A stretch of DNA of 64,000 bases from an uncultured Beijerinckia sp. Its GTDB lineage: Bacteria; Pseudomonadota; Alphaproteobacteria; Rhizobiales; Beijerinckiaceae. The stretch is taken from contig CAZLBA010000004.1 of the NCBI GenBank assembly GCA_964557555.1, forward strand, positions 7,667 to 71,666, read 5' to 3'. How positions within the stretch are numbered: the stretch's first letter is position 1; every line of letters begins with the position of its first letter. The translations under genes and the position numbers were made by a program. The notes beneath the pieces are model-generated. The model was not told the DNA's origin and ran no database searches. It saw only the letters and a list, made by a program, of their open reading frames with translations. Below, piece by piece: positions 48,474 through 64,000 of this stretch.

Positions 48474-48503
48474 GCCATCCACCCTATTTTCAATCTGAAT
48501 TGG

Positions 48504-50201
48504 TTACGCGCCGACCAGTTTCACCGAGGTATTGGGGTCGAGTTTCACTGTCTTCACACGGGCCAGATATTTCTCGACAACATCCCAGATCGGCGGTCCT
48601 TCGGTCCCTTGATTGACGCTGGCCCAACCAGCCACGACATATCGACGATTGGCGTCGATGGGCTTGCCAGTCTTCAGCTCTGTCATGTCGGAAATCCGCT
48701 GATTGACGGGCTTGGATACATCAATCGTATAGCCAACACCCCCGACCCGGACCATGTCGCCGCCACCCTGGAAATATGGATCCGGGTGGAAGATATTGTC
48801 TGCGACATCTTCCAGAATGGCCTTCAGCTGTGAGCCTGCCATCTCCATGCGATAGCAGTTGGGATAGGTCATTGCGGTGGCATTCGCCAGAGCCTCGAAC
48901 GTGATCGCATCGCCGGGAACCAGCGTGCCACCCCAGCGGAAGCCCGGCGAAAGCGAAATTTCCGCATCGCGCTCTGACAACATCGCGGCACAAATCAGAT
49001 CATCAAAGGTGCCATTGAAGTTACCGCGCCGGTAAAGCAGCGTTTCGGTACGTGCGAGTTCTCGCGAAAGCTCTGCTGCAAAGGGTTCGCGAATTTTCTT
49101 CACGAGTGCAGCCATCTGCGCATCAGGCGTGATCGCGTCTGAGAATACGGGCATCAGTTTGTAACGGAAGCCAGCGATTTTTTTGTCTCTTACATCAAGG
49201 TCAAGGCGGGATACGAATTTGCCATGCGAGCCTGAGGCAATCAAAATTGTATGACCGACCTGCAATGCTCCCGGCATTGCATCATGCGTATGCGCCGTGA
49301 GGATAACATCGAGCCCCTTCACGCGACCTGCAAGCTTCCGGTCAACGTCAAAGCCATTATGCGAGAGCAGAATGACAACATCTGCACCCTCGGCCCGCGC
49401 TTCATCGACCTGCTTTTGCAGATCGTCTTCACGAATGCCAAATTCCCAGTCGGGGAACATCCAGCGGGGATTGGCAATGGCCGTACGCGGCAAGGCCTGA
49501 CCAATCACGGCCACTTTCGCGCCGCCGCGCTCGAACATTTTACGGGCCTCGAACACCGGCTCCTGCCACTCTGCAGAGCGGATGTTCTGCGCCAGAAAAG
49601 CGAAAGGTGCGGTGTCGGCAATTTCCTTCACGCGCTTGTCGCCCAGAGTGAATTCCCAATGCGACGTCATCGCATCAATTTTCAGCGCGGCCTGCACATC
49701 GACCATGTCCTGACCATTGGTCTTGAGCGAGGTCCAGCTGCCTTGCCATGTATCACCACCGTCCAGCAGCAACACATTCCCATCACCGCGATCGGCGCGT
49801 ATCGCATTGATCAGAGTTGCCACACGATCCATGCCACCCATGCGCCCATAATTTCGCGCCAGCGCCACAAAATCTTCGCTGGTCAGGGCATAGGCATCTG
49901 GCGACCCAGCAGCGATCTTGAACCAGTTGCGAAATTCCGCATCCGTGAGATGTGGCGGCTTGCCACGCGCTTCACCCACGCCAAGATTGATAGATGGCTC
50001 GCGGAAATAAAGCGGCATCAGCTGAGCATGGATATCCGTGACATGCAGGATCGTGAGACGGCCTAGCGGGTCGAAACGCATGATATCGGCCTGCGTCATG
50101 CGCTGCTGTGCAGCAACACGCCCCAGCGGCCCCAGACCTGAGCCAGACATCATCACAGATGCAGCGGCTGTCGCCTGCAGGAAATGCCTGCGCGATACCA
50201 T
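48504..50201 (-). CDS. soxB: Thiosulfohydrolase
   Basis: Tat RRHFL, TDIHAQL, DGGDTWQGS, HWEF, LSHNG, HTHD, QGGGDMVRVGG. Confidence 0.96.
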   Translation of the reverse strand: MVSRRHFLQATAAASVMMSGSGLGPLGRVAAQQRMTQADIMRFDPLGRLTILHVTDIHAQLMPLYFREPSINLGVGEARGKPPHLTDAEFRNWFKIAAGSPDAYALTSEDFVALARNYGRMGGMDRVATLINAIRADRGDGNVLLLDGGDTWQGSWTSLKTNGQDMVDVQAALKIDAMTSHWEFTLGDKRVKEIADTAPFAFLAQNIRSAEWQEPVFEARKMFERGGAKVAVIGQALPRTAIANPRWMFPDWEFGIREDDLQKQVDEARAEGADVVILLSHNGFDVDRKLAGRVKGLDVILTAHTHDAMPGALQVGHTILIASGSHGKFVSRLDLDVRDKKIAGFRYKLMPVFSDAITPDAQMAALVKKIREPFAAELSRELARTETLLYRRGNFNGTFDDLICAAMLSERDAEISLSPGFRWGGTLVPGDAITFEALANATAMTYPNCYRMEMAGSQLKAILEDVADNIFHPDPYFQGGGDMVRVGGVGYTIDVSKPVNQRISDMTELKTGKPIDANRRYVVAGWASVNQGTEGPPIWDVVEKYLARVKTVKLDPNTSVKLVGA

Positions 50202-50241
50202 GCTGACCTCCCGTTTCTTCTTGCCTTGCGGCACAACGCAA

Positions 50242-50568
50242 TCAGGCGACGTTCAGCTTGGAAGCTGCCGTATATTCGGAGCCGTTATCGTCCTTCCAGA
50301 CGAATTTGAACTCACCCGACTCGGCTGCCTTGTAAAAGAAGGACTGATAGGGATTGGCTGACACCGCCGTGTACCAATCCGCCTCAAACACAACCTTGCC
50401 GTTGAAGCTGGCTGTGAACTTGTTGATGATCCGGCGTGGAATGGTCTTGCCAGCGGAATCCTTGCGCTGGCCTGATTCCATCTCATGCGAAATCAGCGTC
50501 TTGATCTCGATGAGTTCGCCCTTCTTGGCATTTGCAGGAACACGAACACGCGGTGTGGGGTTCGACAT
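50242..50568 (-). CDS. soxZ: Sulfur carrier protein SoxZ
   Basis: KTLISHEMESGQRKD...IPR, VSANPY. Confidence 0.95.
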   Translation of the reverse strand: MSNPTPRVRVPANAKKGELIEIKTLISHEMESGQRKDSAGKTIPRRIINKFTASFNGKVVFEADWYTAVSANPYQSFFYKAAESGEFKFVWKDDNGSEYTAASKLNVA

Positions 50569-50603
50569 ATCTCAATCTCCTCGAAGCTGAATGAAAGGCA
50601 GAA

Positions 50604-51062
50604 TTAGCCGCCACAACCACCGATCGTGACTTTCACTTCAGCCTTGTCGGTGAAGAGCGAGCCGTCGGACATTTCAGCGATGCAAATGACATTTTGTGTT
50701 TGCGCAAGACGCATACGCGCCGCAGCCGATGCCTTGCCGCACTCCGGCGTGAAGCGATAGCTGACCACATGCGGCAGCGGATTTCCGTCCGCATAGATGT
50801 GAACGCTCTTCACGTAATTATCGGGCGTCATCGGGCTTTCGACATCCACATTGACCGGAACGACAAGGCCGTTTTCGGCAATCTGGGGCACATCCAACTT
50901 CACCCGACCAGAAGCGGGCTTCTTGTCGCCATAGAGCTTGGTGATTTCCGCCTGAACCGCCGCAGCATCAGCGTAGGCCATGCGGGAGGACAAAAGAGCG
51001 GCGAGTGCAGCAATGCCGCCCATGGTCGCCTGACGGCGAGTCAAATTACCGATCGGGATCAT
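50604..51062 (-). CDS. soxY: Sulfur carrier protein SoxY
   Basis: Tat TRR, PQIAENG, C-terminal VKVTIGGCGG swinging arm. Confidence 0.96.
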   Translation of the reverse strand: MIPIGNLTRRQATMGGIAALAALLSSRMAYADAAAVQAEITKLYGDKKPASGRVKLDVPQIAENGLVVPVNVDVESPMTPDNYVKSVHIYADGNPLPHVVSYRFTPECGKASAAARMRLAQTQNVICIAEMSDGSLFTDKAEVKVTIGGCGG

Positions 51063-51208
51063 GAAACTTCCTCCAGACAGCCAAAGTATGATGGGACCCC
51101 TCTTGACTTCGGGGCCCTCGATTTCAAACATAGTGATATCTATTTTTTTGAATGTAAAGCGCCATCATTAAGGGGACCCCTTACCAAAAGGGGGAAGAGG
51201 AGGACGCC

Positions 51209-52036
51209 ATGGGAATGGGACTCAAAACGCTCACAGTGAGTATTTACCTAATTTTATCAACGACTTATGTATCTGCTCAGGCAGCGATCGACCCAACGGA
51301 AAAGGAGCTTGAGCGCTTTCGAGCCATGATCAGCGATCCCATGGCCAATCCGGGTTTTTTGGCCGTGGACCGGGGCGAGGCACTTTGGAGCCAGAAGCGC
51401 GGCAAGAAAAACACGTCTCTTGAGTCCTGCGATCTGGGCGAGGGCCCCGGCAAGCTGGAAGGGGCCTATGCGCGCCTGCCGCGCTACTTCAAGGATGCCG
51501 ACAAGGTCATGGATCTGGAACAACGGCTCTTGTGGTGCATGGAAAAGGTTCAGGACCTCGATACAGCCGACATCATCAAGCGCCGCTTCTCTGCACCGGG
51601 CGTGGCATCTGACATGGAAGACCTCGTCGCCTTCATCGCCAACAAATCAAGCGGCATGAAGATCGAGTGGCAGAACCAGCATCCGAAAGAGCAACAAGCG
51701 ACGGCTCTGGGGGAAGCCATGTTTTATCGCCGTGCCGGTGTGATGGATTTCTCTTGCGCATCCTGTCACGGCGATCAGGGCAAGCGTATTCGTCTTCAGG
51801 GCCTCCCCTATTTGAAAGAGCCGGGGAAGACGGCGCAGGAAACCATGGGCTCCTGGCCGACCTATCGCATTTCCCAAAGTGCCACGCGCACCATGCAGCA
51901 CCGCATGTGGGATTGCATGCGCCAGCAGCGCTGGCCTGAACCTGATTATGCATCAGACGGCATCACCGCCCTGCTCGCTTTTCTGAACAAGCAAGCCGAT
52001 GGCGGGGAGCTGCAAGTTCCTTCCATCAAGCGCTGA
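51209..52036 (+). CDS. soxA: SoxAX cytochrome subunit A (monoheme, type II-like)
   Basis: Single CASCH, active-site RMWDCMRQ, N-terminal SCD/LWC cysteine pair instead of a first heme motif. Confidence 0.93.
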
Positions 52037-52042
52037 GGAGAC

Positions 52043-52660
52043 ATGACCATGAAGATCCGTTTTCTCCTCATCCCACTCGCTTTCTTTTCGACTTCTGCAC
52101 TGGCGCAAGCCAACAAGCCTGTCGATATTGAAACCATGGAGAAGTCTGTCAGGGAAATGTTCTCCAAAGCTTCACCTGATTGGCAAAAGCGCAACGAACT
52201 GGATGAGACACAACGTGTCTGCACAGTAACGCGCAATGATGTGACAGCCGCTCAAGCAGAGGCGATCCAGAAGCGCGAATCTGCCGGCGTACCAAAGCCA
52301 CCGGGTGGCAAATATCTTGGGGACTGGAAGAAGGGCTATCAGATCGCCAATAACGGGCGCGGCGGCCAATTTTCCGATCCACCTGGAACAGTCGCCGGAG
52401 GCAACTGCTTTGCCTGCCACCAGCTTGATCCGAAAGAGTTGAGCTATGGCACCTTGGGACCAAGCCTGGCTGCTTATGGCAAGCAGCGCAATTATGATCA
52501 GGACTCCATCGAGGATGCATGGAAGAAAATCTATAATTCCCAATCTGTCGTGGCCTGCTCGAATATGCCGCGCTTTGGCAGCATGGGCATATTGTCAGCC
52601 GAGCAGATACAGGATGTGATGGCCTATCTCTTCGACCCGAATTCACCCGTGAACAAATGA
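52043..52660 (+). CDS. soxX: SoxAX cytochrome subunit X
   Basis: GNCFACHQ, GTLGPSL, SNMPRFG. Confidence 0.93.
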   Translation: MTMKIRFLLIPLAFFSTSALAQANKPVDIETMEKSVREMFSKASPDWQKRNELDETQRVCTVTRNDVTAAQAEAIQKRESAGVPKPPGGKYLGDWKKGYQIANNGRGGQFSDPPGTVAGGNCFACHQLDPKELSYGTLGPSLAAYGKQRNYDQDSIEDAWKKIYNSQSVVACSNMPRFGSMGILSAEQIQDVMAYLFDPNSPVNK

Positions 52661-52692
52661 AAAATCGGCGGGGGCGTTCAGCGTCCTCGCCA

Positions 52693-53247
52693 CTATCCTC
52701 CTTGCTTGAGCCAATCAGGGAAAGACGTGTTCAAATAGCCCTCTTCCTTCACATAGCGAAACATCGCAAGGAAAGATTGAGGCTCAAGCAAACCCGACAT
52801 GCGCGCCACTTCGCGTTGTGGCGCAGGCTTTTGTGCAAGTCCTTGTGTCTTTGCAGGGTAGAAGATGATCGTCGGCGTCAGTCGTACGCCCTGCCTACGC
52901 GCAAAATCCCGCTCGCTCATGGTTTTGCCGTCCACATCAGTAACCTCGCGCGCACCAGACAGATTGAGGTGCAAGATTTCAAAATGCGAACGCACGTAAT
53001 TCACGATCGCTTCGGTTGAGAAATGCTCCTCCGCCATGCGCTTGCAATAAGGACAAGCGCGCTGGCTAAAGATGATAGCAATACGCTTGCCCGAAGTGGC
53101 AGCACTCTCGATGTCTTCATTCAGATTGAGAAAGCTCTCCAGATACCAGTCGAAATGATACATCCCATCTTCACCAAGCTTTGGCTGCGCATGAGCCGCT
53201 AGCGAGGTGACGGAGAATCCCAATAAGACGGATCGGCGTGTCAGCAT
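52693..53247 (-). CDS. soxW: Periplasmic thioredoxin SoxW
   Basis: WYLESFLNLNED, CPYC, TPT; downstream of soxV. Confidence 0.85.
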   Translation of the reverse strand: MLTRRSVLLGFSVTSLAAHAQPKLGEDGMYHFDWYLESFLNLNEDIESAATSGKRIAIIFSQRACPYCKRMAEEHFSTEAIVNYVRSHFEILHLNLSGAREVTDVDGKTMSERDFARRQGVRLTPTIIFYPAKTQGLAQKPAPQREVARMSGLLEPQSFLAMFRYVKEEGYLNTSFPDWLKQGG

Positions 53248-53253
53248 GATGAC

Positions 53254-53982
53254 CTATCCTATCTGACCCAAAGAAGGGAATTTTTCTAAAAGCCAATTGC
53301 CTATGCTGGGCATGAGCCCCGTGATGAAAAGCAGACCTGTCACAACCATAATGAGACCGATGACACGCTCGACCAGCGCGATATGGGAGCGGAATGTGTT
53401 CAGGAAGGATGTGAACGCGCCCACGAAAAAAGACGCTGCGAGAAAAGGTACGCCAATGCCCAGCGCATAAGAGCCCAGCAATGCCATCCCATGCAGGACC
53501 GTGTCTTGTGCGCCTGCAACAATGAGGATCGAGGCAAGCACTGGCCCCACGCAGGGTGTCCACCCAAAAGCAAAAGCCAGCCCGACAACAAAGGCACCTG
53601 CATGGCTGGCTGGAGCGCGCGCTGAGAAACGCAATTCCCGGAAAAAGAGCAAGACGCGAAACAGGCCAAGGAAGTGCAAACCAAGCACCACAATCAAGGC
53701 ACCCGCAATCATCGACAACAGATCATACCAGCGCGTCAGCCATTGACCGAGCGTGCTGGCCGTGGCCCCCAATGTCACAAAGACGACCGAGAACCCTGCG
53801 ACAAAGAAAAGAGCGCGGATGAAGCTGCGCTGCGCCAGGCTCTTGTCCGCGGTCTTGAGGGCGGACAGGTCTGAGCCAGTAAGAAAGCAGAGATAGGGCA
53901 ATACCAGCGGCAAGATGCAGGGCGACAGGAAGGATAGAAGGCCCGCCGCGAAGGCGCCCGCAAAGCTCATCTGCGCCAACAA
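53254..53982 (-). CDS. soxV: CcdA-like membrane thiol-disulfide transporter
   Basis: SFLSPCILPL and FGWTPCVGP. Confidence 0.88.
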   Translation of the reverse strand: MLAQMSFAGAFAAGLLSFLSPCILPLVLPYLCFLTGSDLSALKTADKSLAQRSFIRALFFVAGFSVVFVTLGATASTLGQWLTRWYDLLSMIAGALIVVLGLHFLGLFRVLLFFRELRFSARAPASHAGAFVVGLAFAFGWTPCVGPVLASILIVAGAQDTVLHGMALLGSYALGIGVPFLAASFFVGAFTSFLNTFRSHIALVERVIGLIMVVTGLLFITGLMPSIGNWLLEKFPSLGQIG

Positions 53983-54000
53983 GCCATCCTCCCGGAGCTG

Positions 54001-54030
54001 GCATTCGTATTCGAATATATCTATATTAGT
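54001..54030. promoter_or_regulatory. AT-rich soxV/soxS divergent promoter, candidate SoxR operator
   Basis: TATTCGAATA palindrome at 54008-54017; SoxR is known to bind the soxS-soxV intergenic region in Paracoccus. Confidence 0.45.
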
Positions 54031-54033
54031 TTT

Positions 54034-54450
54034 ATGACCCTCTGGACAGCCCTCCGCTGGATAGTTTTAACGAGCCTGCTGCTCGCAGGTCCTTCTGCGG
54101 CTGCGCGCGCCGCTGAGCTTCTTTTCGTGGAGCGAGCGGGTTGCCCCTATTGCGCCAAATGGGATCGAGAAGTTTCAGGCGCTTACCAGAATTCTGCGGA
54201 GGGACAGCGTGCGCCCTTGCGCCGTCACTCTTTGGAAAGCGGGCAACCAACTGGACTATCGGCCCCCGTGCGATTTACGCCGACCTTTGTGTTGATGGAC
54301 AACGGACGTGAAGTGGGTCGCATTACGGGCTATATGGATGATCATAGTTTCTGGGGCCTCCTTACGCCTTTGATGGCAAAGCTCGACACCCTTTCCAGAC
54401 CGACAGCGACCCGCCAAGGAGCTTCAGGTGACAATCAACGCGTCCCGTGA
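54034..54450 (+). CDS. soxS: Periplasmic thioredoxin-like SoxS
   Basis: Signal peptide, GCPYCAKW, FTPTF, GRITGY...FW. Confidence 0.85.
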   Translation: MTLWTALRWIVLTSLLLAGPSAAARAAELLFVERAGCPYCAKWDREVSGAYQNSAEGQRAPLRRHSLESGQPTGLSAPVRFTPTFVLMDNGREVGRITGYMDDHSFWGLLTPLMAKLDTLSRPTATRQGASGDNQRVP

Positions 54451-54790
54451 AATCGAAGCAGAACTTCGCTCTGATGTAGAATTCTCTCCCCGGCTGGACG
54501 AATTGTTCCGCAATGCGCGCGAAGCGAGTGATTTCCTTAAGGCCCTGTCGCATGAGAACCGCCTGCTGCTTCTCTGCCTGTTGGCGGAAAAAGAGCGTTC
54601 CGTGAGCGAGTTGGAGACAATCCTCGCACTGCGCCAGCCCGCCGTCTCCCAGCAGCTCGCGCGGCTACGCTATGACGACCTTGTCACCACAAGGCGGGAT
54701 GGCAAGACGATCTATTATTCCATAGCAAACGAGAATGTGCGTCGCATTGTGACCGTTATCTACGATATGTTCTGCGAAAAGGGCCGCTAG
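54428..54790 (+). CDS. soxR: ArsR family sulfane-sulfur-responsive repressor
   Basis: LKALSHENRLLLLCLL, SQQLARLR, C-terminal MFC (BigR/SqrR-type Cys pair). Confidence 0.88.
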   Translation: MTINASREIEAELRSDVEFSPRLDELFRNAREASDFLKALSHENRLLLLCLLAEKERSVSELETILALRQPAVSQQLARLRYDDLVTTRRDGKTIYYSIANENVRRIVTVIYDMFCEKGR

Positions 54791-54841
54791 CACTGCGCTT
54801 CGGCATCAGACAAAAATATAAGGCCCTGTCGGGAGGAAGAC

Positions 54842-55945
54842 ATGGCAGGCTTGGCGAGCAGCTCTGTTGCTCTTTTGGGACTTCTGGTTGGCGTTCTGGT
54901 CGGCTTCACCGCCCGCCGCGCGCGACTGTGCACGTTGGGTGCAATTGAATCAGCTCTTGTCGGGGGCGACTGGCGCTGGATGAAAATCTTTGGGCTTGCT
55001 TTTGCCATCGCCCTCATCGGCACCCAACTTCTGATCATCAATGATTGGCTCGATGACACGCAATCGCGTTATCTACCGACCCGGCTTGCCGTCTTTGCCA
55101 TCATCATCGGCTCCCTGCTGTTCGGCGTTGGAATGGCACTCGTTGGGACCTGTGCCTTCGGCAACCTGGTTCGACTTGGCTCAGGCGATCTTCGCAGCCT
55201 CGTGGTGCTGCTCATCTTCGCAGCAGTCGCGCTCATGACACTGCGCGGCAGTCTCGCCGTCATCAGGCTCGATTGGATCGAGCAGATTGTATGGACCCAG
55301 CCACATGATCAGCACGCCTCTTTGGTCGCATGGCTGGAACGATCTACCGGAAGCAACTGGCGCAGCTGGCTAACAGCCACCATCGCCCTGCCACTGATCC
55401 TGCTCGTGGCCTTTGACCGCCGGCTGCGCAAATCACCGCGCTTGCTGATCGCAGCAGCGACATTGGGACTGGGCGTTGTGTCCGGCTGGGCTGCAACCGG
55501 ACCACTGGCGGATGAATTCGCGCAATTGCGCTTGCAGAGCCTCACTTTTGTGGCACCCGTGGCCCGCGCTTTCAACGGAGTGGTCTTCGGCACGGAATGG
55601 CTCGAATTCTCAACGCTCAGCGTGCCGGGCGTCATCATTGGCTCCTTCCTCGCTGCTATTCTGGCTGGCGAATTTCGCTGGGAAGCCTTTGATGACCATC
55701 TCGAAATGCGCCGACATTTGCTAGGCGCGATACTGATGGGGGTCGGAGGTGTGCTGGCGGGCGGATGCACAATTGGCCAAGGAATTACAGCGGGTTCACT
55801 CCTCGCCCTGTCCTGGCCCATTGCGGTTTTGGGCATGATGTGCGGCGCATGGTTTGGCCTGACGATCCTAGTGGAAGGCTCCGTCCGTGAATGTATCACC
55901 ACACGTTTTGACCGCATCCGACGCCACCGGCGACGCGAGGCGTGA
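54842..55945 (+). CDS. soxT: YeeE/YedE sulfur transporter
   Basis: RLCTLGA, GTCAFG, AGGCTIGQG conserved Cys motifs; follows soxR. Confidence 0.88.
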   Translation: MAGLASSSVALLGLLVGVLVGFTARRARLCTLGAIESALVGGDWRWMKIFGLAFAIALIGTQLLIINDWLDDTQSRYLPTRLAVFAIIIGSLLFGVGMALVGTCAFGNLVRLGSGDLRSLVVLLIFAAVALMTLRGSLAVIRLDWIEQIVWTQPHDQHASLVAWLERSTGSNWRSWLTATIALPLILLVAFDRRLRKSPRLLIAAATLGLGVVSGWAATGPLADEFAQLRLQSLTFVAPVARAFNGVVFGTEWLEFSTLSVPGVIIGSFLAAILAGEFRWEAFDDHLEMRRHLLGAILMGVGGVLAGGCTIGQGITAGSLLALSWPIAVLGMMCGAWFGLTILVEGSVRECITTRFDRIRRHRRREA

Positions 55946-55951
55946 ACCCTC

Positions 55952-56833
55952 TCAAGCCGGCACAAATCGAAAAGCAGTGCCTGCACGCTCAGTGCGTCCC
56001 CGACCGCCATTCGGCAAATGGTAGCCGATGAAGGAAAGCTTTTCGGAGGCCAATCGGTCCAGAAGCTTCTTGCGTGTGGCAACAGCCAGGTCACCATCCT
56101 GATCCGCCCCCGTAGCGATGTCGGGATGGGCAAAAGCGAGAAGCGGATGGGTCAGCGCATCACCCAGCACGATGAAGCTTTCTGAACCGTGGCGAATTTC
56201 AAATGACGTGTGACCGGCGGTGTGCCCAGCTGTTGCCAAAGCTGCGACCCCTGGCAACACTTCTTCACCTGCCTTGAAGGTACTGAGCACGGGGCTCAAT
56301 TCTTTCAGCAACCGCTGAGCCCCGGCCGGGATTGCCTGCAAAGATTCCGGCAAGCCTGAGAAGGCTTGTGGACCCAACCAGAAGTCACGCTCCACGAGGC
56401 TGATGTGATATTTCGCATTGGGAAAGGCAGGTGTTCCGAAATCATCCAATGCTCCCCACAGGTGATCGGGATGAGCATGTGTGAAGAGGACATGCGACAC
56501 TTTTTCAGGATCAATGGCTGCAGCATTCAGCGCTTCCTGAAGCTTGCCGGCCCCTGACATGAAATTGGGACCTGCCCCGCAGTCAAACAGGATGATCTCT
56601 TCGCCCCGTTTGAGCAGCGTGACATTCAGGGGGCTGCGATATTCGGGTGCATAAGCGCCAGCCGCCTTGAGAACCTCCATGGCTTGGGGCTGATCTCTCT
56701 CCCGCGCCAGAAAGCTTGTTGGAAGCGTCAAGGCTCCATCACTCAGCGTTGAAATCTGCGCAGCTGGCTGCGCCACTCCAGCATTTGCTGCCAGAACGGC
56801 TGCCGAGCCCAAGAGAAAATGCCTTCGATCCAT
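55952..56833 (-). CDS. Tat-exported MBL-fold metallohydrolase (SoxG-like)
   Basis: RRHFL signal, THAHPDH, GHTAGH, LGD, GYH. Confidence 0.85.
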   Translation of the reverse strand: MDRRHFLLGSAAVLAANAGVAQPAAQISTLSDGALTLPTSFLARERDQPQAMEVLKAAGAYAPEYRSPLNVTLLKRGEEIILFDCGAGPNFMSGAGKLQEALNAAAIDPEKVSHVLFTHAHPDHLWGALDDFGTPAFPNAKYHISLVERDFWLGPQAFSGLPESLQAIPAGAQRLLKELSPVLSTFKAGEEVLPGVAALATAGHTAGHTSFEIRHGSESFIVLGDALTHPLLAFAHPDIATGADQDGDLAVATRKKLLDRLASEKLSFIGYHLPNGGRGRTERAGTAFRFVPA

Positions 56834-56858
56834 AATCATCTCCGACAAGGTCTGATTG

Positions 56859-57866
56859 CTAATGCGACGAGAAAGTAAAGCGTGATCCAACATTCGATGT
56901 CACCAGCTTCTCCGGCATCAGCTGGCGTACCGCATCAATGAAACCGCTACCAGAACAATGCATGGGCAGGATGACATCAGGGTCAAGGATCTTCAGCTCA
57001 TCGACTGTGTGGCGAATATAATCAGGTGTAGCCGTGCCCAGATGAAATCCGCCGATCACAGCATGAAGCTTAGTCACACCCGAAACATGCATGGCCGTCT
57101 TGACCGTGTTGATGAGGCCGACATGACCACAAGAGGTGATTACAACAAGACCCTTGTTGCGGATAATATAGCAAGCAGCATGTTCATCCGGGTGCTCATC
57201 CTTCACCAGCGCACCCTGCCGCTCTGCATTGGTGAAATGGTCATAGCCCTCTTCCACCATAGAGCCGCCTGTCACGCATTCAAAGCTCTGGCGCTTGATA
57301 TAGCCACTTGTGAAGACCTGACCAAGAGAGAGGGGCTTTGAACAGCAGACAGAACAGACGCCCTTGTCCGTCAGATGGTCGCGATCAACGCGGCCCCATG
57401 AAACAGGCTTTTCCTTCTTGCCAATCCATTTCTCGCGAAATGCCTCTTCGCCACCCACGAAAAGGGAAAGATCATCCGGCATGGCATCGCGATAATGATC
57501 GACAAAGCCGGCAAGCCCTCCGAAATGATCGCGATGCGCATGGCTCAAGATAAGCCCTTTGATTTTACCGGGCTCGATGCCAAGCAAATCGAAGTTCCGA
57601 TTGATGATTTCGGGTGTATATCCGAAATCGACCAGATATTGCGCGCTTTCTCCATGCACATGGGATTCCAGATGAAGCGACAGCCCCCATTCGCAGGCCA
57701 GCGTTGTCATCTGCCGTCCGGGGATTTGTCGCACATGTTCGATCTCAACATGTGGATGGCTCGCCGGCGGAAGAAAGCGTTCATAAAAAGAATCGACAAG
57801 CACGCGGACCTTGAGAACATCCACGATGGGGGCGCGAAAAGCATCGCGCGGAGCGAGCTGGTCCAT
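56859..57866 (-). CDS. MBL-fold metallohydrolase (COG1237-like)
   Basis: EWGLS, SHAHRDHFGG, TSCGHVG, GGFHL, PMHCSG; start is ATG 57866 or GTG 57875. Confidence 0.87.
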   Translation of the reverse strand: MDQLAPRDAFRAPIVDVLKVRVLVDSFYERFLPPASHPHVEIEHVRQIPGRQMTTLACEWGLSLHLESHVHGESAQYLVDFGYTPEIINRNFDLLGIEPGKIKGLILSHAHRDHFGGLAGFVDHYRDAMPDDLSLFVGGEEAFREKWIGKKEKPVSWGRVDRDHLTDKGVCSVCCSKPLSLGQVFTSGYIKRQSFECVTGGSMVEEGYDHFTNAERQGALVKDEHPDEHAACYIIRNKGLVVITSCGHVGLINTVKTAMHVSGVTKLHAVIGGFHLGTATPDYIRHTVDELKILDPDVILPMHCSGSGFIDAVRQLMPEKLVTSNVGSRFTFSSH

Positions 57867-57878
57867 AGCATCCACCTC

Positions 57879-59633
57879 TCACCGGTGCCGTGTAATCGTG
57901 TCAACAAGCGCGGGCTTGCCAAGCTTCACCTGCTCAAGCGCGCGTAGCAAGGCCGGCCGCACATCATTGGGGTTTTCAATCGGACCTTCCGCCCACATGC
58001 CCATGGAGCGCGCAAGGCCGGCAAAGTCAGGCGCTGGGTCATACAAATCCATGCCGATATGCGCCTTGCCCTCATCCGTCCCGCGCTGGCGAGCGACTTT
58101 CAACTGGTGATCCCAGTCATTGTAATAGGCCCGATTATTATACATGACGATCAGGATCGGGATTTCATGTTTTGCAGCGACCCACAAAGAAGCCGCATCA
58201 TATAGCAAATCTCCGTCAGGCTGGATGTCCACCACAATGCGCTTGTGCTTCTTGTGCGCCAGCGCCACGCCAAGCGAAATGCCGATCTGTGTGGACGTGC
58301 CAAGATCCGCACCCGGATGACGGTAGGCTTTATCAAAGTCCCAATGTTTGCGCACAGTGGTCTTCAGGGTATTGGCAGCAAGCACCCAATCTTCCGTCTT
58401 GATGACATCCCATATTTCATGGGCCAGACGCGCGGGTGTCATGGGCGCAGCATCCCAATCCTTGCGCGCGGCCACCTGCCACTTCTCCCATGTTTCATTA
58501 TGTCGTTGGCCGATCTTGGCGCTGCGCGCTGCAATCTTTGCCTGCAATTTGCTGTCACCCGCGATACGCTCCTTGCAGATCTGCGTCACAGCCGGAATAG
58601 ACAAGCTCGTATCACCCAGCGCACGAACGGAACATGGCTGGGATTTGCCATAGTCGGTGGACCATTTGCTCAAACCGACTTCCGCCATGCCCATCTCGAT
58701 CCAGTCGCAGTCAGGCCGGACAAGCGGGGTCAATGTGTGGGTTTTCTCATCAAGCTCCATCGTTGGACGATGCCAGTCGCGCACATCAAGGCCACAGACG
58801 AGATCGACATCCTTTAACGCGCCCTTGTCGAGGCTGACGCAAAGTGGATGGCGATTTGGAAAATTGAGCGAATTATTCACATCCCAAACAGCAGCGCCGA
58901 CCGTTTCGGCTAGGGCAACCATGTTCTCGAATCCACCCTGATGACGGCCGGCAAATTCCGGCAGCAAGAGCGGATGATCAGCATCAAGCAAACGCTGCGC
59001 GACGGCTTGCAGGGCCTCTGGCTCAGGCATGGAGCGTGAGGGCGTACGCATTGCCGTTGCAGGGGGCAACGGCACTTCCTTGTCAATCCGCGTCTCCTGC
59101 ATTCCTGCATCAAAACAAAGATAGGTCGGACCTTTGGGTTCGGTCGTCATGATGGAATAAGCGCGCGCAAAAGCATCTGGCACGCCATCAATGCTGGAAG
59201 GCTGATAGTCCCATTTCACGAAATCGCGGATCGCATTGCCCTGCACGAGCGCCGTATGCGTCCAGTCGATATGGGGGCGCCGCTTGCCCTCATCCATCGG
59301 TCCCGTTGCGCCCATGATGAAGATCGGCACGCGGTCAATATAGGCATAATAAATAGGCATGGTCGCATGAAGCAGGCCGACGAGATTATGCAAAATCACC
59401 GCCAGCGGCTTGCCGCTGGCTTTGGCGTAACCATGGGCGATCTGCACGGCTGTCTCCTCATGCTGGCATACCAGCATGGGCGGATCATTCTTGCCGTAAT
59501 TGATCAGCGAGTCGTGCAAGCCACGAAAACTCGCCCCAGGATTGAGCGTGATATATTCGAAACCATAGCGTTGGATGAGGTCCACAATTATATCGGATTG
59601 CCACCCGCGAAGGCTGTCATCGGTCCGGCTCAT
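57879..59633 (-). CDS. Thiamine diphosphate-dependent enzyme (benzoylformate decarboxylase/acetolactate synthase-like)
   Basis: NPGASFRGL, HEETAVQIAHGYAK, QPDGDLLY...YNN ThDP motif; start moved to ATG 59633. Confidence 0.9.
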   Translation of the reverse strand: MSRTDDSLRGWQSDIIVDLIQRYGFEYITLNPGASFRGLHDSLINYGKNDPPMLVCQHEETAVQIAHGYAKASGKPLAVILHNLVGLLHATMPIYYAYIDRVPIFIMGATGPMDEGKRRPHIDWTHTALVQGNAIRDFVKWDYQPSSIDGVPDAFARAYSIMTTEPKGPTYLCFDAGMQETRIDKEVPLPPATAMRTPSRSMPEPEALQAVAQRLLDADHPLLLPEFAGRHQGGFENMVALAETVGAAVWDVNNSLNFPNRHPLCVSLDKGALKDVDLVCGLDVRDWHRPTMELDEKTHTLTPLVRPDCDWIEMGMAEVGLSKWSTDYGKSQPCSVRALGDTSLSIPAVTQICKERIAGDSKLQAKIAARSAKIGQRHNETWEKWQVAARKDWDAAPMTPARLAHEIWDVIKTEDWVLAANTLKTTVRKHWDFDKAYRHPGADLGTSTQIGISLGVALAHKKHKRIVVDIQPDGDLLYDAASLWVAAKHEIPILIVMYNNRAYYNDWDHQLKVARQRGTDEGKAHIGMDLYDPAPDFAGLARSMGMWAEGPIENPNDVRPALLRALEQVKLGKPALVDTITRHR

Positions 59634-59747
59634 TTCCACCCCTACCTTTTCTCTCGGATTTTTGCTTGGACAATTCTGGAACAATGCTACCATTTTTTCC
59701 AATGAAGCAAATGCCGTCCAAGCGACGGCCCCAAGGAGGAAACGACG

Positions 59748-60785
59748 ATGGGCAGATCCCTGCTCTATGGCCTTGCGCTTGCCCTTGGCTTGACCAGCGC
59801 ACAGGCGCAAACCGCGCCCGGACCCAATGCGGCGGACTTCTTCAAAGGCAAGGATGTCCATATGCTGATCAGCCACCCCGCCGGAGGTGGAATGGATGTT
59901 TATGCGCGTTTCTTTGCGCGCCACCTGTCCAAATTCATTCCCGGCAATCCGAATGTCATTCCGCAAAATATGCCCGGTGCTGCGGGGATCGTGATGGCCA
60001 ATAGCATGGCCTCCGTACAACCCAATGACGGGACCTATATTGCCTATGGTCCGGGCAAGATTGCTTTGGCTGACCTGCTCAAAGTGCCCGGCGCACGCTT
60101 CGATGCTGCCAAATTTTCTTACATCGGCAGCATGAATTCCGATGTGGGTGTGGCGATGTCCTGGCATACGGCACCCGTCAAGACCGCCAGCGATCTGATG
60201 CAAAGAGAGCTGCTGGTTGGTGCTGGCGGCAGCACAGATCAAAGCAATGTGTTCCCAACTGTACTGAACCGAATTCTGGGAACAAAATTCAAGATCATTC
60301 CCGGCTATGCCGGTACAGCAGCACTCTTCCTCGCGATGGAGCGCGGCGAAATCAACGGGATCGGTGGCGTCAATTATTCGTCTCTTCCAGCATCAAAGCC
60401 TGACTGGCTACGCGACAAGAAGGTCAATCTTCTTCTGCAAACATCGACCAAGCGTGATGATGACATGCCAGATGTGCCAACCGTCTTTGAATTGGCCAAG
60501 ACCGAGGAACAAAAACAAATCCTCGGCCTGATCTTCTCCCAGTCACAGCTCTCACGGCTGGTTTTTGGTCCACCCAATATGCCGCCCGAACGTCTGAAGA
60601 TCTTGCGGGATGCCTTCGATGCGATGGTCAAGGATCCGGCTGTCCTTGCAGACGCTAAAAAGCAGAATATCGAAATCAATGCTCCGACATCGGGGCCTGC
60701 GATCGACGAGCTGTTAAAGACATTCCGCGCCACACAGCCTGATGTGATCAGAAAGGCGGCCGAGGCGATGGAGCCTGGAAAATAA
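59748..60785 (+). CDS. Bug/TctC substrate-binding protein (long subtype)
   Basis: Signal peptide, FFKGKD, IPGNPNVIPQNMPGAAG. Confidence 0.88.
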   Translation: MGRSLLYGLALALGLTSAQAQTAPGPNAADFFKGKDVHMLISHPAGGGMDVYARFFARHLSKFIPGNPNVIPQNMPGAAGIVMANSMASVQPNDGTYIAYGPGKIALADLLKVPGARFDAAKFSYIGSMNSDVGVAMSWHTAPVKTASDLMQRELLVGAGGSTDQSNVFPTVLNRILGTKFKIIPGYAGTAALFLAMERGEINGIGGVNYSSLPASKPDWLRDKKVNLLLQTSTKRDDDMPDVPTVFELAKTEEQKQILGLIFSQSQLSRLVFGPPNMPPERLKILRDAFDAMVKDPAVLADAKKQNIEINAPTSGPAIDELLKTFRATQPDVIRKAAEAMEPGK

Positions 60786-60849: not shown

Positions 60850-62172
60850 CTAAAGGAAATCGTCCAACGTCACCTTGTCGAGATTTTTGGGTGTGGCACG
60901 CTCAAAGACCATGCGCTGATCTGGCTGCGACAAAGGCGGCATCGTCGAGTCGATAAACCACCGCGCCATGGTCGGCGCGTCGCGGGCGGGATCGAGTGCG
61001 GACGTGGGAAAATTGACGATCCAGTCAATATCCGTTTTGGCATGGGTGCGGCTCGCGAAAGACCAGAAGATATCGCGCGGATCATCCAGATTGACATCCT
61101 CATCGACACCAATGGCCAGCTTCACATCCCGCGTCACACCCGACAACGTACCCAGCAATCCGGTCTTGGCCTGACCGCGCAAATTGCCACGCAACTTCAC
61201 TGCGCAGACAAGCCCGCCAGCTGATGGAAAACAACGCACATCCATCACATCAAGACCGCCCTCGATTTGGCAAATATGCTGATAGATCGCGAGTTCCTGA
61301 GCCAGCATACGCGCACCACCCGCCTCATCCTGCGAGACATGAACGGGGTGCTTACGCTGCAGCATCTTTTGGCATTTCAATCCAAAGAGTGAAACATCCT
61401 GATAAACACTCGAGGTAGAACCCAGTCGCAAGCGCTGAGAGCTTCGGCTAGTGCTCTCGCACAAGATTGCATATTCAAACTCGGCAGGAACCGTGATCCC
61501 GCTCATTTCGGCACAGGCCAACACTTCTCCTGCCAATGCACTTGCCTGATCAAGCGAAAAGCGCGGATAGAGATGCGCCATCTCTCCAGCCAGACAGGCT
61601 GCATGATGCACACCCGCCGCCAGGACAAATTGAGAACCAGCACACAGTTGATCTTCCAGCCAGTCTGGCGCATCCGCCAAGGCGCAGGCACCATCAGCAA
61701 GACGCAAGAGACGCACACGCGCAACCAGGTCGTCGTCTGATGTTCTGTCTTTACAAAAGAGCGTGACCGTCAGGCTCACGGCCTCGTCTCTTTCACAGTG
61801 ACGCGGCATTGGTACGTGCCGCAAATCATTCGGCGCGTCCACCAAATCGGCAGATAGGCTGCCATGCAGTTTCACGCCGGGCACAGGGCCCAGAAGGCGC
61901 GAACGCAACGACGCAAGCATCCCATCCTCTGCGGTCCCCAATGATGCCGCCCAAGTGCTGCGGCCCGCGTAAAAGCCTCCGAGCCAGGACCATCCCTGAT
62001 GATTGCGCAGATGGGTGGCCAGAACGGGACGATGGTGATCCTGAACAAATTGCCGCATGAAGGCGGACAAGGTTTGCGCGGGATCCAGTTCGGCATGAAG
62101 CATGGTGAGCGTTCCGCGTCTGGAAATTTTCTCCAGCGCTGCACGCAGGGAGGGGGACAAGGTGACACTCAT
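60850..62172 (-). CDS. Degenerate UbiD-like protein, probably non-catalytic
   Basis: Conserved C-terminal KLAIGVDEDVNLDDPRDIFWSFASR...LDP...IDST, but no EGPFGE motif; frame intact; ATGA overlap with the upstream UbiD. Confidence 0.78.
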   Translation of the reverse strand: MSVTLSPSLRAALEKISRRGTLTMLHAELDPAQTLSAFMRQFVQDHHRPVLATHLRNHQGWSWLGGFYAGRSTWAASLGTAEDGMLASLRSRLLGPVPGVKLHGSLSADLVDAPNDLRHVPMPRHCERDEAVSLTVTLFCKDRTSDDDLVARVRLLRLADGACALADAPDWLEDQLCAGSQFVLAAGVHHAACLAGEMAHLYPRFSLDQASALAGEVLACAEMSGITVPAEFEYAILCESTSRSSQRLRLGSTSSVYQDVSLFGLKCQKMLQRKHPVHVSQDEAGGARMLAQELAIYQHICQIEGGLDVMDVRCFPSAGGLVCAVKLRGNLRGQAKTGLLGTLSGVTRDVKLAIGVDEDVNLDDPRDIFWSFASRTHAKTDIDWIVNFPTSALDPARDAPTMARWFIDSTMPPLSQPDQRMVFERATPKNLDKVTLDDFL

Positions 62173-63584
62173 GACAGCTTTCCTTCGCTCAAGGCAGCCA
62201 TCAGCTTGGAAAGATCCACTTGCGCTGGTGCCGCGCGCTCATAGCGCTCTGATTGCGACAAAGGACGGGTGGCATCAATCATCACTTTGGTTCCGATCCG
62301 TGACGAGATGCTTTCCGATTCGAGTTCCGAGGCATTATCGAGACCAAAGACGCGCGTATCATTGATTTTTACGATATCGCGCGCGGGATCAACGCGTGTA
62401 GCCAAAGCCCATAAGACATCTTCAATCGAGGCTGGATCGACATCTTCGTCCACTGCAATGGTGAATTTGGGATGGAGAAATGGGCTCGACAACGCCGCTG
62501 TCATTGCAAGCTGCGCATGACCGGGCTTTGGATCCTTGAGCTGCAAGATGACCAGCAAAGGAGAGACACCGCCCAAACAGCGGATGTCTTTAACATTGAG
62601 ACGCCCGCCATCGAGACCCGCTAGATGCTGGAACAATTTCATCTCAATTGTCACAGCGACGATTGATTGCGCATCATTAGGTGGCAAGCCACAAGAAATC
62701 GCATAGAAGATCGGATCGTTGCGATAGGTCATGGCATTAACGGTGAAGACAGGCAATTCACCGCCATAACCGTAAGTCCCCGTGACCTCCCCGAACGGCC
62801 CTTCAGGTGAAACCTCGTCTAGTGAGACTGTGCCTTCAAGAACCAGCTCGGCATCTGCGGGCACTTCCATATCGATCGTCTCGCAACGCACGGTACGCAC
62901 CGGCTCCTGCAAGAGACTGGAGGCAATTGTAAGTTCGTCCGTGCCGAAGGGAGCAACGAAGGCGCTGGAGAAAATGATGAGCGGATGCGCGCCCACAACC
63001 ATGGCAACTTCCATGGGGCGATTCATCTTTCTGCAAATCGCAGCGATGCGGGCGGCTTGACGGGGCAGCATCAAGAAACCGGTCTTGTTCCGGCCGAGGA
63101 TCTGCGCACGATGAATGGAGATGTTGCGAATCCCCGTCTCAGGATTGCGGATGAAGCACATCCCCGAAGCAATATATCGTCCGGGATCACGCTCCGAAGT
63201 CCACATGGCCGGCAGCTTACGCAGATCAACATCATCTCCCAACAAGATGTTTTCCTTGCAGGTCGCCTCTGCAGCCGAAACACTCACACAAGGCAGCTGT
63301 GTCCGCATACGCGCTGCAAGAGTGGCCATCGCTTTATCTTCAGAAACACCGAGCGCAACAGCCCATTTGGCACGGTCTGCGACGATTTGGCTCATCGCCC
63401 GCCAGCCATCATGGCCTTTGATGTCATCAAACACAGTGGCCTTGCCAAGCTGCGCATAAGCCTTGAATGCCACCGCCGAAAGGTTTGAATCGGGATCGAC
63501 CGTTTTGGTAATGCGCGCGAGCTGTCCCGCTGCCTCCAAATCCTCCAGATAACTGCGGATGGACTGATCTTTTCTGTTTTGCAC
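62169..63584 (-). CDS. UbiD family prFMN (de)carboxylase
   Basis: ERDPGRYI, NISIHRAQ, VPADAELVLEG, EGPFGEVTGTYG, VDEDVDP; GTG start after GGAG. Confidence 0.92.
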   Translation of the reverse strand: MQNRKDQSIRSYLEDLEAAGQLARITKTVDPDSNLSAVAFKAYAQLGKATVFDDIKGHDGWRAMSQIVADRAKWAVALGVSEDKAMATLAARMRTQLPCVSVSAAEATCKENILLGDDVDLRKLPAMWTSERDPGRYIASGMCFIRNPETGIRNISIHRAQILGRNKTGFLMLPRQAARIAAICRKMNRPMEVAMVVGAHPLIIFSSAFVAPFGTDELTIASSLLQEPVRTVRCETIDMEVPADAELVLEGTVSLDEVSPEGPFGEVTGTYGYGGELPVFTVNAMTYRNDPIFYAISCGLPPNDAQSIVAVTIEMKLFQHLAGLDGGRLNVKDIRCLGGVSPLLVILQLKDPKPGHAQLAMTAALSSPFLHPKFTIAVDEDVDPASIEDVLWALATRVDPARDIVKINDTRVFGLDNASELESESISSRIGTKVMIDATRPLSQSERYERAAPAQVDLSKLMAALSEGKLS

Positions 63585-63740: not shown

Positions 63741-63769
63741 AAAAATGGGGAGGAGCACCGCTCCTCCCC
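63741..63769 (-). terminator. Intrinsic terminator after the partial UbiD gene
   Basis: GGGGAGGAGC/GCTCCTCCCC 10-bp stem with a TTTTT run on the minus strand. Confidence 0.8.
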
Positions 63770-63776
63770 GCATCAT

Positions 63777-64000
63777 TCACTTGAACCCATATTCCTTCCA
63801 CCGCCGGGCGACTATGTCCTTATGCTCAGCCAAGGGCTCGACCGTCGGAGGATAACGCTTGCCGCCATATTGCGGCTCGGGACGGAAATCGAGGTTTTCC
63901 GTCGCATCAATCAGCACGCGGCACCACTTGCCGGTGCCAAACAGCATCGGATCTCGCTCCTCAAGCCGGGTTGAGGGATCAAGCAGCGATCCGAATGTGC
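63777..64000 (-). CDS. 3' end of another UbiD family protein (partial, absent from ORF track)
   Basis: Hand translation: TFGSLLDPSTRLEERDPMLFGTGKWCRVLIDATENLDF...VARRWKEYGFK*, containing the UbiD LDPS, IDAT and RWxEYG motifs. Confidence 0.8.
   Translation of the reverse strand, partial: TFGSLLDPSTRLEERDPMLFGTGKWCRVLIDATENLDFRPEPQYGGKRYPPTVEPLAEHKDIVARRWKEYGFK

What the first reader, a model, noticed from the sequence alone, without database searches (positions are those of the whole stretch)
60850..63584. Active UbiD translationally coupled to a full-length pseudo-UbiD: candidate heteromeric (de)carboxylase
Seen: the second gene overlaps the first by ATGA and has an intact 440-aa frame. Its prFMN-binding and catalytic motifs are eroded (ERDEAVSL for ERDPGRYI, VPAEFEYAILCE for VPADAELVLEG, LRLGSTSSVY for EGPFGEVTGTY), while the C-terminal oligomerisation region is well kept. 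Known: phenylphosphate and naphthalene carboxylases are multi-UbiD complexes. Inference: a non-catalytic scaffold or regulatory subunit forming a hetero-oligomer, which I do not recognise from any described aerobic system.
Basis: partly seen in the sequence, partly recalled or inferred. Interest (0 to 1): 0.75.

Follow-up and report, generated by a model that had tools for sequence, protein, structure and literature searches.

The report
UbiD decarboxylase with dead-twin scaffold subunit
A decarboxylase gene with all its catalytic residues sits locked to a duplicated copy that has lost them but kept its assembly parts; the two travel together or are fused across many bacteria, so the dead copy likely serves as a required structural partner.

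Summary
Gene A (471 aa) has the full UbiD Arg-Glu-Glu triad. Gene B (440 aa, ATGA overlap) is predicted to keep the UbiD fold but lacks the triad, most cofactor ligands and the substrate loop.

B is not decaying. A and B are sister clades related to an intact single-gene form (S). All 36 informative A loci in species genomes carry B; 0 of 42 S loci do; 0 of 49 B domains have the catalytic motif. B's oligomerisation domain is under purifying selection like A's (median dN/dS 0.18 each), while its dead cofactor domain is relaxed (0.42). The pair has fused repeatedly, once in a relative 89% identical to A, and some fusions keep only B's C-terminal domain.

A predicted A-B complex scores 0.89 against a best control of 0.00 (possibly from memory of solved UbiD dimers) and lays B's C-terminal arm on A's catalytic-glutamate loop.

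Best reading: a former homo-oligomer split into a catalytic subunit and a likely obligate scaffold subunit. Binding, dependence and substrate are untested. I found no UbiD pseudoenzyme subunit in ten literature searches.

The parts
62169..63584 (-). Gene A: UbiD-family (de)carboxylase with intact catalytic triad, 471 aa from GTG
   Evidence: TIGR00148 310 bits, over cut-off; three Pfam UbiD domains; best solved relative HmfF, E 1e-67; N154, R159, E217, E261, E266 present
62787..62804 (-). A catalytic Glu-x4-Glu motif (E261-E266); the loop on which B's arm is predicted to pack
   Evidence: sequence; predicted interface A 264-271 with B 426
60850..62172 (-). Gene B: full-length pseudo-UbiD, 440 aa, no catalytic triad
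   Evidence: open frame; AlphaFold2 pLDDT 85, pTM 0.88; Foldseek to HmfF TM 0.82, E 9e-33; catalytic positions lost
60943..61317 (-). B oligomerisation domain (residues about 286-410), the part kept in every fusion type seen
   Evidence: Pfam UbiD_C 53 bits; 78% identical to the fusion relative against 46% for residues 100-285; median dN/dS 0.18
60853..60909 (-). B C-terminal arm (residues 422-440), predicted to dock on A's cofactor domain
   Evidence: lowest-error contacts; pLDDT about 50 in B alone and 83-93 in the single-chain fusion; column conservation 64% in B, 65% in S, 35% in split A
62169..62172 (-). ATGA stop/start overlap joining A to B (translational coupling inferred)
   Evidence: 9 of 15 other split A-B junctions overlap (ATGA, GTGA or TGATG), the other 6 lie 7-11 nt apart (read; L039 and the two B-A loci not counted)
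62181..62185 (-). AAGGA Shine-Dalgarno-like site inside the end of A, 8 nt before B's ATG
   Evidence: sequence
63747..63769 (-). Terminator-like hairpin between the upstream UbiD gene and A; suggests A-B is its own transcription unit
   Evidence: 10 pairs, 8 G-C, T-run; consensus match only

Best explanation
Gene A encodes a UbiD-family enzyme with the complete catalytic triad, so it is likely a prenylated-FMN (de)carboxylase, and gene B encodes a duplicated copy without that triad which is predicted to bind A and likely replaces A's former identical partner as a required, non-catalytic scaffold subunit. Shown by sequence: A keeps the cofactor and catalytic residues, the substrate loop and the surface that receives a partner's arm; B keeps the oligomerisation domain and the C-terminal arm; the single-gene relatives (S) keep both sets. 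Inferred: a tandem duplication of an S-like homo-oligomer was followed by complementary loss. Predicted: in a 1:1 A-B pseudo-dimer the two oligomerisation domains pair, and B's arm (422-440) clamps A's cofactor domain at residues 36-41, 127-133 and the catalytic-glutamate loop 264-271, as the arm of a neighbouring subunit does in solved UbiD oligomers. Inferred: only B's C-terminal third is essential, because independent fusions remove A's arm together with the part of B that receives it, and some remove B's whole cofactor domain. The substrate is not identified. Neighbouring hydroxylases, cupin dioxygenases and molybdenum hydroxylases suggest an aromatic or heteroaromatic acid in an oxygen-using pathway (weak inference).
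For: (1) Co-occurrence. Of 80 species-genome loci, 36 of 36 informative A-type loci carry B adjacent or fused (24 fused, 10 split, 1 with B cut by the contig end, 1 with a frameshifted A); 0 of 42 S loci do; 2 are cut off. Of 79 metagenome loci, 13 of 13 informative B loci have A next to them; 5 more begin inside B. (2) Catalytic motif present in 44 of 44 A, 99 of 99 S and 0 of 49 B domains. N154, R159, E217, E261, E266 are 100% conserved in 40 A and 90 S sequences and are not kept in 34 B. (3) Tree of C-domains: A one side of a branch (SH-aLRT 99), B (86), both joined with S against outgroups (98). A and B distances correlate across 43 loci (Mantel r 0.92, best of 999 shuffles 0.21); shared ancestry alone produces this, so it shows joint inheritance only. 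(4) Selection: median dN/dS A-N 0.13, A-C 0.18, B-C 0.18 (127 pairs), B-N 0.42 (122 pairs). (5) Fusions: 46 of the 120 listed best A homologues carry a B-type domain in the same chain (37 long, 9 short). Fused/unfused state changes at least 7 times on a 62-protein tree, and starred branches force 5 changes for the long form. The window's nearest relative P0163 (89% to A) is a fusion. (6) Predicted complex 0.89 against best control 0.00; the mark was reached by 116 of 157 solved complexes and 2 of 215 mismatched pairs; runs agree in at least 95% of contacts, partner pLDDT at least 86. (7) Complementary conservation (A/S/B, %): arm-receiving surface 75/65/26; substrate loop 78/62/32; arm 11/65/64, or 35 for A when only the 14 split A are counted. 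(8) B's arm is low-confidence alone (pLDDT 49-52) and confident in the fusion model (83-93, pTM 0.85). (9) In solved UbiDs the C-terminal helix associates with the cofactor domain of the adjacent monomer (PMC8988006, passages).
Against: No experiment shows binding, dependence or activity. Most split A proteins still have an arm-like tail (33 of 47 by a loose pattern that also missed 5 of 26 S tails), so A may be able to self-associate and B could be optional. B's dead domain is still below neutral in most pairs (median 0.42, range 0.14-0.95), which allows a further role. Frameshifts interrupt B in 4 loci (L032, L096, L101, L111); 2 of these also break A, and A or S are broken in 4 other loci (L039, L105, L081, L176). 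I read these as assembly errors but did not prove it. The A/S/B thresholds were set after seeing the scores, with profiles built from these families; several loci are near duplicates and the dN/dS pairs share branches. 47 single-chain A proteins have no context, so a lone A is not excluded.
Confidence: 0.75

Rival explanations
1. B binds A but acts as an optional regulator (inhibitor or allosteric tuner) of an A enzyme that works alone.
For: Most split A proteins keep an arm-like tail (33 of 47). B's dead domain is predicted to be folded and is under weak constraint. Subunit cross-talk is reported in the dimeric Fdc (PMC10850782, passage).
Against: Overlapping genes and repeated fusions fix a 1:1 ratio, which suits a structural subunit. 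B's N-terminal two thirds has no conserved pocket (column conservation 27% at A 100-300) and is largely or wholly missing in 9 short fusions. No informative A locus lacks B.
Confidence: 0.13
2. B is a prenylated-FMN chaperone or maturase for A, doing the job of LpdD or PhdC with a UbiD fold.
For: Several UbiDs need such helpers (PMC10865409; PMC13040415; passages). B keeps the overall fold and a lysine at the position of A K373 in 71% of sequences.
Against: The other cofactor ligands and the substrate loop are lost. The cofactor domain is the fastest-evolving part and is deleted in short fusions. The conserved parts are interface parts.
Confidence: 0.05
3. B has gained a new catalytic or ligand-binding function unrelated to UbiD chemistry and forms a two-step complex with A.
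For: Open full-length frames are kept over long evolutionary distances.
Against: All but 5 of the 28 invariant columns of the B alignment lie in the C-terminal domain and arm, and the C-terminal positions checked are mostly shared with S. No B-specific set of conserved polar residues appears in the N-terminal domain.
Confidence: 0.04
4. B is a decaying duplicate with no function.
For: Only 24% identity to A; frameshifts in 4 B loci; 7 synonymous and 7 non-synonymous variants in B against 11 and 3 in A among low-depth RNA contigs.
Against: Clade-wide retention, dN/dS 0.18 on the C-domain, conserved gene overlap, repeated in-frame fusion.
Confidence: 0.03

Closest known systems
HmfF (2,5-furandicarboxylate decarboxylase, PDB 6h6v/6h6x) and AnInD (7p9q)
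   Same: Best solved relatives of A by sequence (HmfF E 1e-67) and of B by fold (TM 0.82). Same three-part monomer whose C-terminal arm contacts the next subunit (PMC8988006, passages).
   Different: These are homo-oligomers with every subunit catalytic. A's score is far below that of its own clade, so the database label '2,5-furandicarboxylate decarboxylase' on many relatives is not evidence of substrate.
Phenylphosphate carboxylase PpcA/PpcB; naphthalene carboxylase cluster of strain N47
   Same: Two or more UbiD-like subunits encoded in one cluster; the naphthalene enzyme is proposed to form one complex (PMC12016498, PMC6849830, passages).
   Different: In the one Ppc locus examined both subunits pass their models and keep Arg and Glu-x4-Glu. 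A scores 139 and 152 bits against cut-offs of 565 and 469. These systems are anaerobic and have further subunits; no fusion was seen. Naphthalene carboxylase subunits were not examined here.
VdcC/VdcD (vanillic acid decarboxylase)
   Same: A non-catalytic subunit is required; it contacts loops holding the catalytic Glu-Arg-Glu residues (PMC8379154, PMC10865409, passages). B's arm is predicted to touch the equivalent glutamate loop.
   Different: VdcD is a small zinc-ribbon protein unrelated to UbiD that decorates a VdcC hexamer; B is a full-size paralogue predicted to replace alternate subunits.
LpdD and PhdC/YclD cofactor helpers
   Same: Non-catalytic UbiD-associated proteins encoded near the enzyme or its ubiX (passages).
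   Different: Small, different folds, and they bind the cofactor; B has lost most cofactor ligands.
Homomer-to-heteromer transition after gene duplication (general process)
   Same: Complementary loss in two copies that then depend on each other; shown experimentally for yeast Fcy1 (PMC10888846, abstract).
   Different: Here single genes, tandem intact pairs, split catalytic/dead pairs and two fusion lengths all occur naturally in one bacterial enzyme subfamily.

Membership tests
UbiD prFMN-dependent (de)carboxylases (gene A) | Passes the family model; three-domain UbiD architecture | tested here: met
   TIGR00148 310 bits > 245; Pfam UbiD_N, UbiD, UbiD_C over cut-off
UbiD prFMN-dependent (de)carboxylases (gene A) | Arg-xn-Glu-x4-Glu/Asp catalytic triad | tested here: met
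   R159, E261, E266, invariant in 40 A sequences; motif defined in PMC10176493 (passage)
UbiD prFMN-dependent (de)carboxylases (gene A) | Metal and phosphate ligands of the cofactor | tested here: inconclusive
   N154, E217, K373 invariant; Gln176 stands where HmfF has His. Ligand roles are recalled from Fdc1, not taken from a call.
UbiD prFMN-dependent (de)carboxylases (gene A) | A UbiX prenyltransferase in the genome | tested here: met
   One UbiX over cut-off on another contig; also in 5 of 5 other A-B genomes searched
UbiD prFMN-dependent (de)carboxylases (gene A) | Binds prFMN and decarboxylates a substrate | not testable with these tools
   needs biochemistry
UbiD fold superfamily (gene B) | Full-length UbiD fold | tested here: met
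   Predicted model pLDDT 85; TM 0.82 to HmfF
Catalytic UbiD enzymes (gene B) | Catalytic triad and family model cut-off | tested here: not met
   0 of 49 B domains with the motif; TIGR00148 45 bits
Phenylphosphate carboxylase (PpcA/PpcB) | Passes TIGR02723 / TIGR02724 | tested here: not met
   A 139 and 152 bits against 565 and 469; B 16 bits on TIGR02724
Phenylphosphate carboxylase (PpcA/PpcB) | Both UbiD subunits keep the catalytic triad | tested here: not met
   True of the one Ppc locus read, not of the A-B pair
VdcCD / hydroxyarylic acid decarboxylases | Passes the VdcC model; small zinc-ribbon D subunit | tested here: not met
   NF041204 280 bits against 650; the partner gene here is 440 aa. 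A small D-type gene was not searched for separately.
Obligate heteromer with pseudoenzyme subunit | Physical association and dependence of activity on the dead subunit | not testable with these tools
   Prediction only; indirect support from fusions and co-occurrence

The most novel reading that the evidence does not exclude
This is the first UbiD pseudoenzyme subunit. The enzyme is an A3B3 hexamer with half its sites dead, held together by B, which keeps the helix that appears to build the hexamer (G333-S344: conservation S 92, B 81, A 66; in HmfF this helix carries three of the substitutions of the evolved dimeric form, read from the alignments and the title) and clamps A's catalytic loop with its arm. 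The subfamily preserves every stage from homo-oligomer through tandem intact pair and obligate heteromer to repeated single-chain fusions, and the roughly 610-residue fusions are natural one-site, single-chain UbiD enzymes.
Probability: 0.3. Interest if true: 0.78.

Novelty: new variant of a known kind. Interest (0 to 1): 0.63.

Why it matters
UbiD enzymes are studied for carbon-dioxide fixation onto aromatics, and many fail to give active protein when expressed with UbiX alone. A paralogous dead subunit would be a new kind of required partner beside VdcD, LpdD and PhdC, and databases currently label it as a decarboxylase. The split, long-fusion and short-fusion forms make two open questions testable: why UbiDs need a partner's arm, and whether sites in the oligomer communicate. 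The family is also a natural series for the homomer-to-heteromer transition. The general evolutionary process is known, and the substrate is unknown, which limits the score.

Tried and rejected
Genus-wide search: no A-clade or S-clade gene at E 1e-90 in 64 other genomes of the genus (38 of good quality counted by the tool, 0 matches) and no B orthologue in 40 relatives, so close kin gave no context.

Substrate from neighbours: clustering of flanking frames and Pfam scans gave HpaB-type hydroxylases (12 A-B loci), cupins, molybdenum hydroxylases (6 A-B loci), dienelactone hydrolase (9), hydantoin-racemase family (11) and TctC receptors, each confined to sub-clades. The window's own neighbours (TctC, TPP enzyme, metallo-beta-lactamase folds) joined none of the 60 largest clusters. 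A guess at quinolinate-type substrates found no support in one search. No substrate is claimed.

Expression: 6 river metatranscriptomes hold 21-38% of the stretch's words. In 4 laid, short contigs cover both genes and two bridge the A/B junction, but these are low-depth contigs with no silent-stretch control, so transcription and co-transcription are not shown. Strain-level variation from DNA runs was not obtained.

Promoter scan: 2 sites against 1.5 expected, not used.

Co-transcription with the upstream UbiD was considered and set aside because of the terminator-like hairpin.

Fold search of the fusion model matched only single UbiD chains; it cannot test the dimer geometry.

The primary papers on HmfF structure and on phenylphosphate carboxylase were not held. 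Three look-ups of earlier scan findings returned nothing. The careful tree did not finish; the quick tree was used, with few columns and a long branch for window B.
Full report
OBSERVATION. The two genes are present as described. A (62169-63584, minus strand, 471 aa from GTG) overlaps B (60850-62172, 440 aa) by ATGA, with an AAGGA 8 nt upstream of B's start. A passes TIGR00148 and all three Pfam UbiD domains. B passes only UbiD_C, and its cofactor domain scores 14 bits against A's 220. The two are 24% identical end to end. An AlphaFold2 model of B (pLDDT 85, pTM 0.88) matches HmfF over its full length (TM 0.82), so B is predicted to be a folded, full-size UbiD. Base composition of B is like that of its neighbours. 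A terminator-like hairpin separates A from a third, unrelated UbiD gene upstream. The genome has 19 UbiD_C matches, one UbiX and heme-copper oxidase genes; B is the only listed UbiD frame that covers the catalytic region and lacks the Glu-x4-Glu motif.

THREE RELATED GENE TYPES. Searches with B returned a family of degenerate full-length proteins with a well-kept C-terminus. Searches with A returned single-domain proteins and many of about 610 and 820 residues. I fetched 80 loci from species genomes with an A alignment (the best 80 of 176) and 79 metagenome loci with a B alignment (the best 80 of 156, scan truncated), and classed each C-terminal domain by profile score (thresholds chosen after seeing the scores). 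Three types emerge: A (catalytic), B (dead) and S (a single intact gene whose C-domain resembles both). The catalytic motif is present in 44 of 44 A, 99 of 99 S and 0 of 49 B domains with enough upstream sequence. In a joint alignment N154, R159, E217, E261 and E266 are invariant in 40 A and 90 S sequences and are not kept in 34 stand-alone B sequences. The triad is the family's defining motif (PMC10176493, passages; PMC5818171, one passage); the metal-ligand roles of N154 and E217 are recalled. A quick tree of C-domains puts A (support 99) and B (86) each on one side of a branch, joined with S against other UbiDs (98); S itself has weak support (46).

A AND B TRAVEL TOGETHER. Among the 80 genome loci, 24 are A-B fusions, 10 are split A-B pairs (one, L039, probably a frameshifted fusion), one has B cut by the contig end, one has B behind a frameshifted A, 42 are S with no B, and 2 are cut off. 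All 36 informative A loci therefore have B. Among the metagenome loci all 13 informative B loci have A (in 3 the order is B then A); 5 begin inside B. Record titles are mostly Alpha- and Betaproteobacteria metagenome-assembled genomes. Some loci are near duplicates. Of 15 split A-B junctions 9 overlap and 6 are 7-11 nt apart. Tandem pairs of intact S genes, about 60% identical, also occur (L116, L141, L171); they resemble the expected starting state but are not shown to be ancestral. The window's pair was not found in 64 congeneric genomes.

FUSIONS SHOW WHICH PART OF B MATTERS. Of the 120 listed best homologues of A, 37 are long fusions and 9 short ones. The long form joins A just after its oligomerisation domain to B at about residue 70, removing A's arm and the first 65 residues of B, which include much of the surface predicted to receive that arm. 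The short form keeps little more than B's oligomerisation domain and arm. The fused state changes at least 7 times on a tree of 62 selected catalytic halves. Split B genes keep the N-terminal residues that the fusions lack, so fusion is the likelier derived state (inference). The window's closest relative is a fusion: 93-95% identical to A in the core domains, and to B 46% in the dead domain, 78% in the oligomerisation domain and 83% in the arm.

SELECTION. Pairwise Nei-Gojobori dN/dS over 127 locus pairs (A-domain identity at least 80%, mean dS at most 0.9) has medians of 0.13 (A cofactor domain), 0.18 (A C-domain), 0.18 (B C-domain) and 0.42 (B dead domain, 122 pairs, range 0.14-0.95). Pairs share branches, so no test is implied. 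Against this, B is frameshifted in four loci; two of them are also broken in A, and four further loci are broken in A or S, which looks like assembly error but is not proven. Low-depth RNA contigs of the window's own population show 7 synonymous and 7 non-synonymous variants in B, and 11 and 3 in A.

PREDICTED STRUCTURE. The A-B complex scored 0.89 against a best control of 0.00; that mark was reached by 116 of 157 solved complexes and 2 of 215 mismatched pairs, the runs agree in at least 95% of contacts and B's pLDDT is at least 86. UbiD homodimers are solved, so the pass may reflect likeness to them, and no A-A control could be run. The informative part is the geometry. The two C-domains pair, and the most confident contacts are B 426-436 on A 36-41, 130-131 and 269-270, next to the catalytic E266. 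This is the arm exchange described for solved UbiDs (PMC8988006, passages). Conservation is complementary (A/S/B, %): surface receiving the arm 75/65/26, substrate loop 78/62/32, arm 11/65/64. The A figure for the arm is lowered by fusions; among 14 split A it is 35, and 33 of 47 single-chain A proteins keep an arm-like tail, although the window's A and its nearest split relatives do not. B's arm has pLDDT about 50 in B alone and 83-93 in the model of the fusion. B also keeps a helix (333-344) better than A does (S 92, B 81, A 66). In HmfF three substitutions of the evolved dimeric form fall on this helix (my reading of the alignments and the entry title; the paper was not available), which hints that B maintains the higher-order ring.

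MECHANISM. Most likely (0.75) an S-like homo-oligomer duplicated in tandem; A kept catalysis and the docking surface, B kept the oligomerisation domain and arm, and the two now form a 1:1 pseudo-dimer, perhaps within a hexamer, with one live site per pair. Sequence losses, co-occurrence, fusion and selection are shown by calls; binding is predicted; dependence of A on B, the direction of evolution and the reaction are inferred. Rivals are an optional regulator (0.13), a cofactor chaperone (0.05), a new activity (0.04) and decay (0.03). The substrate is unresolved; flanking genes point loosely to oxygen-dependent breakdown of aromatic or heteroaromatic acids.

COMPARISON WITH KNOWN SYSTEMS. Multi-UbiD clusters are known for phenylphosphate and naphthalene carboxylases (PMC12016498; PMC6849830; PMC6644310; passages). 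In one phenylphosphate carboxylase locus, found in 1 of 401 genomes searched, both subunits pass their models and keep Arg and Glu-x4-Glu, so that locus is not a precedent for a dead subunit; naphthalene subunits were not checked. Known non-catalytic partners (VdcD, LpdD, PhdC) are small and unrelated in fold (PMC8379154; PMC10865409; PMC13040415; passages). An aerobic UbiD in lumazine breakdown is a single-gene hexamer (PMC12391406, passages). Ten full-text searches found no description of a UbiD pseudoenzyme subunit or of a double-UbiD fusion; 'UbiD' with 'pseudoenzyme' gave 0 papers. The library lacks most subscription journals, two key primary papers were not held, and no supplements were read, so a prior mention cannot be excluded. 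The general homomer-to-heteromer process is established (PMC10888846, abstract).

VERDICT. A real, conserved feature and a new variant of a known enzyme family: a catalytic UbiD with a likely obligate pseudoenzyme partner, repeatedly fused. Interest 0.63.

Noticed in passing
G000, whole genome: 19 UbiD C-domain matches but one UbiX in a 3.36-Mb genome; many congeneric genomes also show ten or more UbiD candidates. A large lineage-wide UbiD expansion.
   Followed up: partly
window 63777-64000 (-), continuing to the contig end (L001 5444-6376): A third UbiD gene with an intact Glu-x4-Glu motif lies just upstream of A on the same strand, from a different subfamily, cut by the contig end and followed by a terminator-like hairpin.
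   Followed up: partly
window A residue 176 (about 63057-63059): Gln stands where HmfF has His (a metal ligand, by recall) in 100% of A and 51% of S sequences; may indicate a different metal site.
   Followed up: no
L116 3220-6407, L141, L171: Tandem pairs of intact S-type genes about 60% identical: a possible independent duplication at an early stage.
   Followed up: partly
L112, L117, L168: Reversed gene order, B before A, in one sub-clade.
   Followed up: no
L108 3288-6340: Complete A and complete B in one open frame with a short linker: a third, full-length fusion type or a sequencing error at the overlap. P0004's extended N-terminus looks similar.
   Followed up: partly
proteins P0037, P0049, P0096, P0121, P0133, P0156: Full-length UbiD-like proteins outside the B clade with unusual residues at the catalytic Glu-x4-Glu motif; further variant or dead UbiD lineages may exist.
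   Followed up: no
G000:C88:2821-4275: One UbiD gene of the window's genome is split into two frames.
   Followed up: no
window 47202-55945: A cluster that reads like sulfur-oxidation (sox) genes with thioredoxin, cytochrome c biogenesis and sulfur-transporter-like genes; names recalled from sequence features, not scanned.
   Followed up: no
window 55952-60785: Two metallo-beta-lactamase-fold genes, a TPP-dependent enzyme and a convergent TctC-family binding protein flank the pair; no conserved link to A-B loci was seen.
   Followed up: partly
L022 1391-3157, L025 4412-6133, L096 4408-6150: A second, divergent intact UbiD gene is transcribed away from the A-B pair in these loci.
   Followed up: no
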